Shown: positions 54,696 to 57,484, numbered from the stretch's first letter. The stretch is 64,000 nt of DNA from a virus (IMGVR_UViG_3300020138_000006:1-64000), one strand, 5' to 3'. Notes: generated by a model from the sequence alone, not told the origin. Program-made: numbers and translations.

Positions 54696-54979
54696 TGGAC
54701 GACTTGCAGATCTCTCCCGCCGTGCGCGCGATGCTCGCTGGAGGGACATCCGCCACGGCGCCGCTCGTCGAGTTCGTGGAGGCGTACTCCGTGGACGACA
54801 ACCTGTGGTGGAAGACCGACTGCGGCCACCACCAGAACCTGTTCGAGGAGGCGTGTGATCGCCTGGAGGTCGCACTCAGCAAGCTGGAGGCGATCCGGCG
54901 CGTCCTCGACACGGAGCCGATCGGGTGGCGAGACCTGCGCGAGCCGATCAGGGCGGTGCTTGACGGGGTGACGGCATGA
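54695..54979 (+). CDS. Hypothetical protein
   Basis: RBS GGAGGAGG; TGATG junction. Confidence 0.65.
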   Translation: MDDLQISPAVRAMLAGGTSATAPLVEFVEAYSVDDNLWWKTDCGHHQNLFEEACDRLEVALSKLEAIRRVLDTEPIGWRDLREPIRAVLDGVTA

Positions 54980-55503
54980 AGCGCATCGCAGGGCGGGTCC
55001 TCGTCGGGATCCGTGAGCCCCTGGGAGGGGCTCTCCGTCGCGGGTACAAGGACTTCTCCGGGAAGCACTCGCAGATCGAGTACGACGACGGGGACGACGT
55101 CCAGCCAGCAGGTCTGGCCGAGGCGAACATCTACACCTCACAGATCCGCGACGACCCCAGGGGTCGGCACATGGTGATCTTGGACCTGGACGTGCCCGTC
55201 CAGGTGTTCCACTCGGCCAACCCGGGGCACAGTCACCTCTACATCGAGAAGCCCGTCGACGCTGACGACTACTTCCACCTGATGGGTCTGCTCGTCAGGA
55301 TGGGCATCGTCGAGCAGGGGTACCTGGGAGCTTCGCTCAGTCGTGGGTACGGGGTCCTGCGTGCTCCGTGGATGCCGAAGAAGAAGGTGACTCGACCCCT
55401 GGGGGGACTCCTCGCGGAGGAGGCGCGCAGGAAGGCTGAGGAAGCCCGCGAGTCCCAGTTGTTGGCAGACGCCATGGCCTACAAGGCTCTGCTGGCGGCA
55501 TGA
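54976..55503 (+). CDS. Conserved phage protein
   Basis: HMVILDLD..HSANPGHSHLYI..GY..S..RG..LRAPW. Confidence 0.7.
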   Translation: MKRIAGRVLVGIREPLGGALRRGYKDFSGKHSQIEYDDGDDVQPAGLAEANIYTSQIRDDPRGRHMVILDLDVPVQVFHSANPGHSHLYIEKPVDADDYFHLMGLLVRMGIVEQGYLGASLSRGYGVLRAPWMPKKKVTRPLGGLLAEEARRKAEEARESQLLADAMAYKALLAA

Positions 55504-55504
55504 G

Positions 55505-57190
55505 TCACGCGGCGTGATGACGCAGGTCAAGCAACTGAGACACCGTGTGGATAACGGCGAAGTCCCCCTCCGGACACGACTTATCCACACCACCCGAGGC
55601 CAGGGCTTCCGCGAGGAGGCTCTGGCCTTCGTGGTTGTAGATGAGGCGCAGTCCGAGGCCGGCGTAGACCTCGGCCTTCCGCTCGGGGGTCGCCGTGCGC
55701 AGCAGGCCAGCCATGCCACCCACCCGCTCGATGAGCTCGGCCACCTGCTCGGCCGAGAGGGCGTCCTGGGGGCACGACGTGTCGGCGATGCGCCGCTTCA
55801 GATCAGCCACCTGCGCCTCACGCTCCGCCAGCGCCTTCGTGATGGCGTCGGAGATGGTGCCGGATTCGATGACGGACACCAGGTTAGAGACCTTGTCCTG
55901 GGCGTCCCGGAGATGCTTGCGCAGGAGGCCGAGCCCTGCTGGTGGCTGTGCAACCTCCTGCGTGGAGGCCAGCCACTCGGGGTCAGCCAGGGTGTTGACG
56001 ATCCAGTCGTCGACGACCTTCTCCAGCCGGTCGGCGCTCACCGAGACGGTCTTTGGGTGCTGAAGGTCAGCGGGAAGGGAGCGACGGCCCCGGGTGTCGC
56101 AGCGGTAGAGGACTCCCCAGGGGCGCTTCTCTGCCTGCATCCGGTGCTCGCACGCGGCGCAGTAAAGCATCCCGCGCATCGGGTAGGTGTTGACGGTGGT
56201 GCGTGGCTTGCGGCTCCCGGGTGCGCCAGGGTGCGCGAGACGGTCTTGCACGGCGGCGATGGTCTGTTCGTCCACGAGGGCTTCGTGCGTGCGCTCAGCG
56301 GGCCGTACCCAGCCTTCCTGGCCCTTCCAGCGCATCCGCGTCTCGTACCCGGCGGCGATGTCGTCGAGGTCCAGGAGTCGCTCGAACTTCTCCTGCTTCC
56401 CCCAGACGCGGGTGCCGGAGTAGGTGGGGTTGGCGAGGATGGCCCGCACGGCGCTGTGCGACCAGCCTCGGGGGTCCCGGTGGGAGTTACGGGCCCGGTC
56501 GTGCTGGGACGGGGATGGGATGCCTTCGGCGGTCAACAGGTCGGCGATCCCACGGAAGCCTGTGCCGGCGATGTAGAGGTCGAAGATGCGCGTCACGACG
56601 GTGGACGTGACTGGGTCCGGCGCGAGCTTGTGTGCGCGCTGCCCGGAGGCGGCCTTGGCTGGGTTCGGGTGGGGCCCGGCGTCGACGAGCATGTACCCGT
56701 AGGGTGGGCGACCGCCGAGGTGCCGATCGGTTGTGGCGGCGAGGGCTTCCATCGAGGCTCGGGTGCGGATGCGGATGCGGGAACGCTCGCCCTTCGCCAT
56801 CCCGCCGAACATCGTCATCATCATCTCGTGCAGGTCGGAGTCGGGTTCGACGAGGCCTCCGACGTCGGGGATGAACAGCGAGACCCCGTGGTGGGTCAGC
56901 AGGGGGAACGTCAGGGAGAACTGGTTGCCGTAGAAGGCACGCTGGGGTTCTCCGACGACGACACCGTCGAACCGACGGTCAGCACGTGCTGCTTCCGCGA
57001 GGAGCTCGGCGGCTTGGGGGCGCCTCTTCCACGGGATGGAACGCGACTGCCCGATGTCGAAGAACTCGACGCTGACGGCATGCCCGAGGGACCGTACGCA
57101 GTCCAGGGCTCGTCGGATCTGCCATTCGCGGGAGGCTTCGGGGTCCTGTGCGTCTTCCGTCGACACGCGGCCGTAGAAGGCGAGGTCCAT
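55505..57190 (-). CDS. Large serine recombinase (integrase)
   Basis: AFYGRVSTEDAQ catalytic Ser, GGRPPYGY, recombinase domain, zinc ribbon YCAAC..YRC, coiled coil. Confidence 0.95.
   Translation of the reverse strand: MDLAFYGRVSTEDAQDPEASREWQIRRALDCVRSLGHAVSVEFFDIGQSRSIPWKRRPQAAELLAEAARADRRFDGVVVGEPQRAFYGNQFSLTFPLLTHHGVSLFIPDVGGLVEPDSDLHEMMMTMFGGMAKGERSRIRIRTRASMEALAATTDRHLGGRPPYGYMLVDAGPHPNPAKAASGQRAHKLAPDPVTSTVVTRIFDLYIAGTGFRGIADLLTAEGIPSPSQHDRARNSHRDPRGWSHSAVRAILANPTYSGTRVWGKQEKFERLLDLDDIAAGYETRMRWKGQEGWVRPAERTHEALVDEQTIAAVQDRLAHPGAPGSRKPRTTVNTYPMRGMLYCAACEHRMQAEKRPWGVLYRCDTRGRRSLPADLQHPKTVSVSADRLEKVVDDWIVNTLADPEWLASTQEVAQPPAGLGLLRKHLRDAQDKVSNLVSVIESGTISDAITKALAEREAQVADLKRRIADTSCPQDALSAEQVAELIERVGGMAGLLRTATPERKAEVYAGLGLRLIYNHEGQSLLAEALASGGVDKSCPEGDFAVIHTVSQLLDLRHHAA
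55545..55590. other. Putative attP inside the integrase 3' end
   Basis: GTGTGGATAA / TTATCCACAC inverted arms around AAGTCCCCCTCCGGACAC, which resembles a tRNA-Leu T-loop and acceptor 3' end. Confidence 0.7.
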
Positions 57191-57342
57191 CAGTCGACCT
57201 CCTGCTGGACAGCCTCCTGCAGGAGCTTCAGCAGCGCGCGGCCTGCCTTGTCGGGTGGCGTGTACGCCACTGGGGGCACGAACCGGACGTCACGAGAGAC
57301 GGCTTCGTTCCATGTCTTGTCGTGCTTGTTCTGCTCCGCCAT
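57190..57342 (-). CDS. Small protein translationally coupled to the integrase
   Basis: Stop overlaps the integrase ATG; RBS GGAGG-like end; AGRALLKLL helix. Confidence 0.55.
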   Translation of the reverse strand: MAEQNKHDKTWNEAVSRDVRFVPPVAYTPPDKAGRALLKLLQEAVQQEVD

Positions 57343-57384
57343 GTCCGCATGGTCGGCGACGCGACGGTGGTCTGTCACGCCGGT

Positions 57385-57410
57385 GAGATCTCCGCTACAG
57401 CGCAAAACGC
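57385..57410. promoter_or_regulatory. Motif variant in the divergent integrase control region
   Basis: GAGATCTCCGCTACAGCGCAAAACGC. Confidence 0.5.
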
Positions 57411-57484
57411 AGGCGCGTGACTTGTGCACCAGGCTCCTTCACCATTCAGACATGACCTGTTTCAGCACGTCGATCGCCTGCAGT

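What the first reader, a model, noticed from the sequence alone, without database searches (positions are those of the whole stretch)
55505..55600. attP inside the integrase gene: a tRNA 3'-end-like core that would rewrite the integrase C-terminus on integration
Seen: the last codons of the serine integrase (..GVDKSCPEGDFAVIHTVSQLLDLRHHAA) overlap a 10-bp inverted repeat (55545-54 / 55581-90) around AAGTCCCCCTCCGGACAC (55560-77). Knowledge: this core resembles the T-loop and acceptor 3' end of actinobacterial tRNA-Leu (..GGTTCAAGTCCCCC..CGGACACCA, from recall); tRNA targets are typical of tyrosine integrases rather than serine ones. Inference: integration would restore the tRNA and replace the last 18 residues with antisense-tRNA-encoded CPEGDLNP... 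The free-phage form ends in -AA, like an ssrA/ClpXP degron. That gives a possible switch with an unstable integrase in the lytic form and a different one in the prophage, analogous to integration-dependent immunity phages but acting on the integrase itself.
Basis: partly seen in the sequence, partly recalled or inferred. Interest (0 to 1): 0.85.

Follow-up and report, generated by a model that had tools for sequence, protein, structure and literature searches.

The report
Serine-integrase attP inside its own gene
The phage's attachment site lies in the last codons of its own serine-integrase gene and copies the 3' end of a bacterial leucine tRNA gene, so integration should rebuild the tRNA and give the integrase a different tail; the idea that the lost tail is a degradation signal is untested.

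Summary
A perfect 10-bp inverted repeat (55545-54 / 55581-90) flanks an 18-bp core (55560-77) inside the last 29 codons of a 561-aa large serine integrase (55505-57190, minus strand).

The core equals the 3' end of actinobacterial tRNA-Leu(GAG): the last four T-loop bases, the T-stem 3' strand, the acceptor 3' strand, the discriminator and one more base. More than 120 genomes carry it.

Homologous integrases in Mycolicibacter, Nocardia, Oerskovia and Promicromonospora end on that tRNA in antisense. Attachment sites rebuilt from Nocardia junctions, and sites in other free elements, have the same layout: integrase tail, arm, core, arm.

So this is very probably attP. Integration should restore the tRNA and change the tail from ..CPEGD-FAVIHTVSQLLDLRHHAA to ..CPEGD-LNPHAR. 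One Nocardia homologue ends in exactly that way.

No prophage of this phage lineage was found, so the site is inferred and not seen in use.

The degron idea is weak. Seven of 100 ORFs of this phage end in -AA, and the nearest same-frame relatives have free-form tails ending -LAG and -QLP.

Serine recombinases at tRNA-Leu were noted in silico in 2011 for Mycobacterium conjugative elements. Mx8 is a tyrosine-integrase precedent for a tail that changes on integration. This is a new variant of a known kind.

The parts
55505..57190 (-). Large serine integrase gene, 561 aa (P0001). The stop codon is at 55505-55507.
   Evidence: ORF and translation. Pfam Resolvase 2.3e-12, Recombinase 3.4e-20 and Zn_ribbon_recom 8.2e-6. 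The N-terminus carries YGRVST. The closest homologues are 53-56% identical actinobacterial recombinases.
55545..55590 (.). Predicted attP: two 10-bp arms and a 26-nt spacer, lying wholly inside codons 534-549 of the integrase gene.
   Evidence: Perfect inverted repeat. The same arm-core-arm layout is seen at the integrase 3' end in L006, L139 and L136, and in the Nocardia attP sites rebuilt from junctions.
55545..55554 (.). attP arm on the far side from the integrase body (GTGTGGATAA on the plus strand). It encodes ..VIHT.. of the free-form tail.
   Evidence: Related same-frame elements have GTTATCCCGACC and CATATCCCCAAC at the same place.
55581..55590 (.). attP arm on the integrase-body side (TTATCCACAC on the plus strand). 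It encodes ..GVDK..
   Evidence: Integrated relatives in Oerskovia, Promicromonospora and an Actinoplanes genome bin have similar arms just before the tRNA.
55560..55577 (+). Common core, identical to the 3' end of tRNA-Leu(GAG): the last 4 nt of the T-loop, the T-stem 3' strand, the acceptor 3' strand, the discriminator and one more base.
55567..55569 (.). Likely crossover. The centre of symmetry is at 55567/55568; relatives are centred one base away.
   Evidence: Geometry of the repeat. Centres are CCGGAG|GGGG in L006 and CCGGA|GGGGG in L139 and the Nocardia attP sites. This is inferred, not shown.
55508..55561 (-). Codons 544-561 (FAVIHTVSQLLDLRHHAA), the tail that only the free form would have.
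   Evidence: After recombination with the commonest tRNA variant the frame reads LNPHAR and then stops (549 aa).
54976..55503 (+). Convergent phage gene (175 aa, phrog_10893). It ends 1 nt before the integrase stop, so there is no intergenic room for an attP.

Best explanation
Positions 55545-55590 are the attP of this temperate actinophage's large serine integrase, embedded in the 3' end of the integrase gene itself.

The target is the 3' end of a host tRNA-Leu(GAG) gene. The integrase would pair attP with the tRNA's T-arm and acceptor region and exchange strands near 55567-55569.

On the integrase side, the phage supplies CTCCGGACA. The tRNA is therefore rebuilt unchanged.

The integrase gene then reads antisense into the tRNA. 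Residues 544-561 (FAVIHTVSQLLDLRHHAA) are replaced by about six host-encoded residues (LNPHAR in most hosts). Excision would restore the long form.

What is shown, inferred or unknown:
- Shown: the sequence features, the match to the tRNA, and the behaviour of homologues.
- Inferred: that this phage uses the site.
- Unknown: whether the change of tail matters. I think it is mainly a by-product of an ancestral layout in which this integrase clade ends on its tRNA target, with at most a modulating effect.
For: 1. The protein is a complete large serine recombinase. It has no intergenic space downstream.
2. The 18-nt core equals the 3' end of tRNA-Leu(GAG). That sequence is found in at least 120 actinobacterial loci, and 80 of 82 matches lie in a tRNA-Leu(GAG) gene.
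3. Homologues end on that tRNA in antisense:
   - Mycolicibacter, with a 20-nt overlap.
   - Oerskovia and Promicromonospora.
   - 16 of the 120 tRNA loci carry a homologue at the tRNA, mostly in Nocardia.
   - 119 of 175 full-length homologues stop exactly on the motif VRRGT, VRGGT or VGGGT, whose stop codon comes from the T-loop.
4. A same-frame homologue, Nocardia L119, is 45% identical through residue 544 and ends ..CPEGDLNPHAR. That is the tail predicted for this phage.
5. Attachment sites rebuilt from Nocardia junction pairs have perfect or near-perfect arms around the same core with the same centre.
6. The free elements L006, L139, L129, L131, L137 and L138 carry the tRNA-like core at the integrase 3' end and no tRNA. 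In L006 and L139 it lies between 10-bp arms with one mismatch. L139 is a related phage.
7. Phage genes lie on both sides of the site. The same free form is found on 5 contigs from several samples.
8. In-silico recombination keeps a tRNA-Leu that ARAGORN detects.
Against: - No integrated copy of this phage lineage was found. The nearest integrase is only 56% identical, and exact junction patterns found nothing in viral or metagenome contigs.
- The host is unknown.
- The part of attB that lies outside the tRNA shows no clear match to the phage arms in any of about 120 loci.
- An 18-bp common core is long for a serine integrase, whose cores are usually 2-8 bp.
- The exact crossover cannot be placed within the shared 18 bp.
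Confidence: 0.82

Rival explanations
1. Degron switch. The free-form tail ending -RHHAA is an ssrA-like tag that makes the virally encoded integrase a substrate of ClpXP or a related protease. Integration removes the tag and stabilises the integrase. The integrase would thereby sense its own integration state.
For: - The tail is lost on integration.
- Four independent free-form tails in the family end in -AA: HAA here, LAA in P0101, PAA in P0083 and VAA in P0199 (with LVA in its relative P0106). None of the integrated forms does.
- C-terminal ssrA-like tags are known to control Int and repressor in integration-dependent-immunity mycobacteriophages (PMC4557955, PMC8092301).
Against: - 7 of 100 ORFs of this phage end in -AA, so the background is high.
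- About 4 of some 12-16 free-form tails ending in -AA is only nominally enriched, and the set was chosen after the fact.
- The closest same-frame relatives end -FRLAG (L006) and -DLQLP (the Nocardia L119 type).
- One Nocardia attP-like form differs from the integrated form by one residue only (VRRGN against VRRGT).
- HHAA lacks the hydrophobic residue before AA that is typical of ssrA (my recollection of the ClpX motif).
- Part of the tail is fixed by the attP arm at the DNA level.
Confidence: 0.18
2. The tail changes integrase activity or directionality, not stability, as reported for Mx8 IntP/IntX. The prophage form would have altered site preference or lower integration activity.
For: - Precedent in Mx8, where attP lies in the integrase gene and integration gives a new 3' end and altered activity (PMC6070905, citing Tojo 1996 and Magrini 1999).
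- The swap lies just after a C-terminal region conserved across the clade.
Against: - Tails differ greatly in length and sequence between lineages (0 to more than 70 residues). That argues against a conserved functional module.
- There are no data on this clade's C-terminal region.
Confidence: 0.1
3. The site is not the working attP. It would be a relic tRNA fragment or a chance repeat, and the true attP would lie elsewhere, for example upstream of the integrase gene at 57.2-57.9 kb. Alternatively, the arms are DnaA boxes or a terminator.
For: - Many serine-integrase phages keep attP upstream of the integrase gene (established knowledge).
- Ten-bp inverted repeats are not rare in this window.
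Against: - The region upstream of the integrase gene is filled with ORFs.
- No terminator-like site is found, and a 26-nt loop is not a terminator.
- Relatives have different arms at the same place (CACTACGCACACG, CCATATCCCCAA, AATGAGACAG, CCCGACCACC). That fits integrase-specific arms and not DnaA boxes.
- The repeat is centred on an exact 18-nt tRNA match at the position where homologues meet the tRNA.
Confidence: 0.05

Closest known systems
Serine-recombinase AICEs of Mycobacterium integrated in a tRNA-Leu gene (Ghinet et al. 2011, PMC3218068; Bordeleau et al. 2012, PMC3429521)
   Same: Same protein clade: Mycobacterium and Mycolicibacter homologues are 53-56% identical, and P0023 sits beside FtsK-type Tra and RepSA genes. 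Same target, the 3' end of tRNA-Leu(GAG).
   Different: Those are small conjugative elements, described only in the integrated state and only in silico. In the passages I read, the papers do not mention attP lying inside the integrase gene or a change of C-terminus. Here the carrier is an 81-kb tailed phage in its free form, and the reading frame across the tRNA differs (CPEGD.. against VRRGT).
Myxococcus phage Mx8 IntP/IntX (Tojo 1996; Magrini 1999; reviewed in PMC6070905)
   Same: attP lies inside the integrase coding sequence. Integration gives the integrase gene a new 3' end, so the prophage makes an integrase with a different C-terminus.
   Different: Mx8 integrase is a tyrosine recombinase, unrelated in fold and mechanism. 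This is a likeness in how it works, not membership.
Integration-dependent immunity of mycobacteriophages BPs, Brujita and Charlie (PMC4557955; PMC8092301)
   Same: Integration cuts a C-terminal extension off a phage protein. In those phages the extension carries an ssrA-like ..AA tag, and their integrase is also tagged.
   Different: There attP lies in the repressor gene and the integrase is a tyrosine recombinase. Here the gene that is cut is the serine integrase itself, no repressor is involved, and no degradation has been shown.
Classical phage serine integrases (Bxb1, phiC31, phiBT1 and others)
   Same: Domain make-up and a short attP with arms flanking a central crossover.
   Different: Those use attB sites in protein-coding genes with 2-8 bp common cores, and attP lies outside the integrase gene (PMC8092301 for Int-S prophages). 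Sequence identity to integrases of known phages is below 30%.
Filamentous phage phiRSM1 small serine recombinase at tRNA-Ser (cited in PMC3218068)
   Same: A serine recombinase that integrates at the 3' end of a tRNA gene.
   Different: It is a small resolvase-like enzyme of a Ralstonia inovirus and not a large serine recombinase. I did not test any relationship.

Membership tests
Large serine recombinase (serine integrase) | N-terminal resolvase catalytic domain with a serine nucleophile | tested here: met
   PF00239 at residues 4-152, E 2.3e-12. The motif YGRVST lies at residues 6-11.
Large serine recombinase (serine integrase) | Recombinase domain followed by a zinc-ribbon domain | tested here: met
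   PF07508 at 194-319, E 3.4e-20. PF13408 at 338-394, 26.5 bits against a cutoff of 25.3.
Large serine recombinase (serine integrase) | Short attP (about 50 bp) with inverted arms around a central crossover | tested here: met
   10-bp perfect arms at +/-14 to 23 from the centre at 55567/8. Relatives have the same layout.
Large serine recombinase (serine integrase) | Catalyses attP x attB recombination without host factors | not testable with these tools
   Needs an in-vitro or in-vivo assay.
tRNA-Leu-targeting actinobacterial serine-recombinase clade | Close homology to the Mycobacterium AICE recombinases | tested here: met
   53-56% identity over 93-94% of the length to Mycobacterium, Mycolicibacter and Cellulomonas proteins.
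tRNA-Leu-targeting actinobacterial serine-recombinase clade | In the integrated state the integrase 3' end overlaps the 3' end of tRNA-Leu(GAG) in antisense | tested here: inconclusive
   Met in homologues. No integrated copy of this phage was found.
tRNA-Leu-targeting actinobacterial serine-recombinase clade | attP carries the 3' part of the tRNA, so that the gene is restored | tested here: met
   18 of 18 nt identity that covers everything 3' of the centre. The tRNA is recovered after in-silico recombination.
Integrase remodelled by integration (Mx8 IntP/IntX type) | attP inside the integrase coding sequence | tested here: met
   The arms and core lie in codons 534-549.
Integrase remodelled by integration (Mx8 IntP/IntX type) | The prophage form has a different C-terminus | tested here: met
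   Predicted at 549 aa..CPEGDLNPHAR. The same ending is seen in the integrated homologues L119 and P0098.
Integrase remodelled by integration (Mx8 IntP/IntX type) | The two forms differ in activity | not testable with these tools
   Needs biochemistry.
Integrase remodelled by integration (Mx8 IntP/IntX type) | Tyrosine recombinase | tested here: not met
   This is a serine recombinase. It is an analogue, not a member.
Integration-dependent immunity (BPs type) | attP inside the repressor gene | tested here: not met
   attP lies inside the integrase gene. The convergent neighbour ends 42 nt before the arm.
ssrA-like C-terminal degron | C-terminal hydrophobic residue followed by Ala-Ala, conserved in the free forms | tested here: inconclusive
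   The tail ends HHAA. 7 of 100 ORFs of this phage end in AA. Free-form tails of relatives end LAA, PAA and VAA, but also LAG, RAG, RLA, LAS, VAF and QLP.
ssrA-like C-terminal degron | Protease-dependent instability | not testable with these tools
   Needs half-life measurements.
   Arms of relatives differ, for example CCATATCCCCAA, CCCGACCACC, CACTACGCACACG and AATGAGACAG.

The most novel reading that the evidence does not exclude
A large actinobacterial clade of large serine integrases is wired so that the host tRNA gene encodes the last residues and the stop codon of the integrated enzyme. The free (phage, plasmid or excised) form carries a private C-terminal extension. In several lineages, this phage included, that extension would be a protease tag, so the integrase is short-lived until it has integrated. 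This would be a self-sensing switch on the recombinase itself, the serine-integrase counterpart of integration-dependent immunity.
Probability: 0.15. Interest if true: 0.75.

Novelty: new variant of a known kind. Interest (0 to 1): 0.6.

Why it matters
- **A rule with a wider exception.** Serine integrases are usually said to avoid tRNA targets; the Islander paper says so outright (PMC4383910). The exception was known only from an in-silico note on Mycobacterium conjugative elements. Here a tailed phage shows the free-form site. The comparison shows that a large clade shares one design: attP inside the integrase gene, and a host tRNA that supplies the enzyme's last codons and stop. The clade holds hundreds of proteins and reaches Mycobacterium, Nocardia, Cellulomonas-like genera and Actinoplanes.
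- **Annotation.** The recurring VRRGT end is tRNA antisense and not a protein motif. Islands bounded by a serine integrase and a tRNA-Leu are real.
- **Tools.** The attB is a conserved tRNA-Leu(GAG) 3' end present across many actinobacterial genera. Such integrases could therefore be broad-host integration tools that do not disrupt a gene.
- **A cheap test.** If the tail affects stability or activity, this would be a new way for a recombinase to read its own integration state. That can be tested with three constructs.

Tried and rejected
- **Junction patterns.** Exact patterns covering attP plus attL (31 nt) and attP plus attR (27 nt) found nothing in viral contigs or metagenome contigs. This phage's own record may be left out of those scans.
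- **Close relatives.** Searches for the integrase in IMG/VR and in GenBank phages gave only 22-28% identical hits. The terminase has no known close relative either. No host could be inferred from either search.
- **Second junctions.** The second junction of the Mycolicibacter element is not within 5 kb. The Oerskovia prophage runs off its contig.
- **Host attB arm.** I looked for a host whose tRNA trailer resembles the phage arm at the 5-bp shift expected for attB. No convincing match appeared in about 120 loci.
- **Terminator reading of the repeat.** Rejected: no T-run, a 26-nt loop, and no hit in the scan.
- **DnaA-box reading of the arms.** Rejected as the main function because related elements have other arms.
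- **A tRNA gene in the phage.** There is none in the whole record.

Full report
**1. What is at the coordinates**

The window is the first 64 kb of an 80,879-bp IMG/VR virus record rated 97% complete. The left 55.5 kb is transcribed rightwards and the rest leftwards.

At the turning point, the minus-strand ORF 55505-57190 encodes a 561-aa protein. It has the three domains of a large serine recombinase.

A convergent phage gene (54976-55503, phrog_10893) stops one base before the integrase stop. There is therefore no intergenic DNA downstream of the integrase gene.

Genes on both sides are phage genes. On one side is a dNMP kinase-MazG fusion; on the other are an HNH endonuclease and a clamp-loader or RuvB-like ATPase. 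The same arrangement, with the same integrase, is on five contigs from several samples. The record is therefore the free, unintegrated form.

The core AAGTCCCCCTCCGGACAC is at 55560-55577 and is unique in the record. Neither the window nor the whole record has a tRNA gene.

**2. Is the core tRNA-like?**

Yes.
The genera include Cellulomonas, Cellulosimicrobium, Oerskovia, Isoptericola, Georgenia, Actinotalea, Promicromonospora, Nocardia, Corynebacterium, Actinoplanes and some Streptomyces.
- In 80 of 82 matches checked, it lies inside a gene that ARAGORN calls tRNA-Leu(GAG).
- Phage and tRNA are identical over exactly 18 nt and diverge on both sides.

**3. What relatives do**

The nearest proteins among 5.8 billion are only 56% identical, so there is no close prophage copy. 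The family is nonetheless very informative.

Nearly all top homologues stop on ..VRRGT..VRGGT or ..VGGGT. In a wider set, 119 of 175 full-length proteins do so. Others end in ..RGDLNPH....GGLEPPRP.. or ..GTRT(H/P).., which are the three antisense readings of a tRNA T-arm.

DNA contexts explain this:
- In Mycolicibacter minnesotensis, the integrase gene overlaps by 20 nt the 3' end of a complete antisense tRNA-Leu(GAG). The TGA stop is the complement of the T-loop.
- The same holds in an Oerskovia flava prophage-like element and a Promicromonospora conjugative element. Their last pre-tRNA bases (GTGTATAGAAAAGAG and TACGATAAAAG) resemble the phage arm GTGTGGATAAGTCG.
- Of the 120 tRNA loci, 16 carry a homologue at the tRNA, in three reading frames.
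- In the phage's own frame, Nocardia sp. CA-135398 (L119, 45% identical through residue 544) ends ..CPEGDLNPHAR. The metagenomic P0098 ends ..ACPEGDLNPHPR.

**4. Rebuilt attP sites**

In Nocardia asteroides the tRNA-side junction (L133) can be paired with a junction 37 kb upstream (L132). Together they give CGTGTGCGTAGTG-tctg-TGTCCGGAGGGGGA-gtcgac-CACTACGCACACG, a perfect 13-bp inverted repeat centred on CCGGA|GGGGG.

For the L119 lineage the pair gives TTGGGGTTATGG-tacg-core-actggc-CCATATCCCCAA.

Free forms show the same plan, with no tRNA beside them:
- L006: GGTGGTCGAG, 34 nt, CCCGACCACC.
- L139, a related phage: CTGTCGCATT, 32 nt, AATGAGACAG.
- L129, L131, L137 and L138 also carry a tRNA-like core at the integrase 3' end.

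The phage site (10-bp arms, 26-nt spacer, centre CCGGAG|GGGG) is a member of this series. This is the main reason to call it attP.

Several Nocardia chromosomes hold tandem arrays of such elements at the one tRNA. The hybrid junctions between them look like attP sites.

**5. Predicted outcome for this phage**

I recombined the phage at 55567/8 in silico with the Cellulomonas denverensis tRNA locus. One junction keeps a tRNA-Leu(GAG) that ARAGORN still detects.

The integrase frame then reads ..CPEGD-LNPHAR-stop, 549 aa, with the commonest tRNA variant (68 of about 120 loci). Other variants give LNPHALYGH and similar tails. The first residue that changes is F544.

**6. The degron idea**

The free-form tail ends -HHAA. 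Some free-form tails elsewhere in the family also end in Ala-Ala: YQTLAA, LWLPAA and VYVAA, with YLVA in a relative of the last.

Against that:
- Seven of 100 ORFs of this phage end in -AA, including the convergent neighbour (..KALLAA).
- The two closest same-frame relatives end -FRLAG and -DLQLP.
- Other free forms end -RLA, -LAS, -VAF and -RAG.
- One Nocardia attP-like form differs from the integrated form by a single residue.

The enrichment is at best nominal and was judged after the fact. I put the degron at under one in five. It remains cheap to test.

**7. Comparison with what is known**

- Ghinet et al. 2011 reported eight similar serine recombinases of Mycobacterium AICEs integrated in one tRNA-Leu gene, and called such targeting rare.
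- Work on Mycobacterium prophages finds serine integrases only in protein-coding genes, with 5-8 bp cores.
- The Islander paper states that serine integrases are not known to target tRNA genes.
- The concept of an attP inside the integrase gene that changes the integrase C-terminus is established for the tyrosine integrase of Mx8.
- My searches found no description of this layout for serine integrases. That is absence from a limited library, not proof.

**8. Verdict**

The attP, tRNA-Leu and tail-swap reading is well supported by comparison, but it has not been seen in action for this phage. The regulatory meaning is open.

It is a new variant of known kinds: the first free-form phage example I could find of the tRNA-Leu-targeting serine-integrase clade. 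It also shows that in this clade the host tRNA gene supplies the end of the integrated enzyme.

Noticed in passing
window 55545-55554 and 55581-55590: Both arms contain TTATCCACA, the classical DnaA-box sequence, which another reader had also noted. Related elements have different arms at the same place, so this is probably coincidence or a lineage-specific integrase motif. Same-frame relatives share (T/A)TATCC.
   Followed up: partly
window 54976-55503 (+): The convergent neighbour (175 aa, phrog_10893, with a weak sub-threshold AEP-primase-like hit) ends ..YKALLAA. That is a more ssrA-like end than the integrase's own. Its stop is one base from the integrase stop.
   Followed up: partly
window 55531-55543, and the tRNA trailers in L009-L128: Many Cellulomonas, Cellulosimicrobium, Oerskovia, Isoptericola, Georgenia and Actinotalea genomes share a conserved trailer CTCGTTGAGACAGCG right after tRNA-Leu(GAG). 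The phage has AACTGAGACACCG just outside its arm, on the other side of the crossover. The meaning is unknown.
   Followed up: no
L139:4500-4623 (related phage contig, SRR33471207): The arms of this phage's attP-like site (CTGTCGCA at -26 to -19) match the conserved host trailer (CTGTCTCA at -21 to -14). The shift is exactly 5 bp, the offset between attP and attB known for large serine integrases (my recollection). This hints that its host is a Cellulomonas-like genus. Only the one half-site matches.
   Followed up: partly
G007:C1:4460303-4734619 (Nocardia sp. CA-135398) and G009:C1:5777025-6061400: Tandem arrays of three or more elements, each with its own serine integrase, are stacked at one tRNA-Leu(GAG). 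The hybrid attP-like junctions between neighbours span about 270 kb in all. This implies that attL- or attR-like sites can serve as targets.
   Followed up: partly
window 57190-57429 (-): A 79-aa ORF with no family match ends where the integrase gene starts (overlapping codons). It is a possible partner of the integrase, such as a directionality factor or a regulator.
   Followed up: no
L111:204-7620 (Isoptericola sp. GXG9306): A 7.4-kb insert lies at the same tRNA-Leu. It is bounded by a 24-nt tRNA 3' fragment plus the duplicated trailer, and shows no match to this integrase. It is probably an island of another kind using the same tRNA.
   Followed up: no
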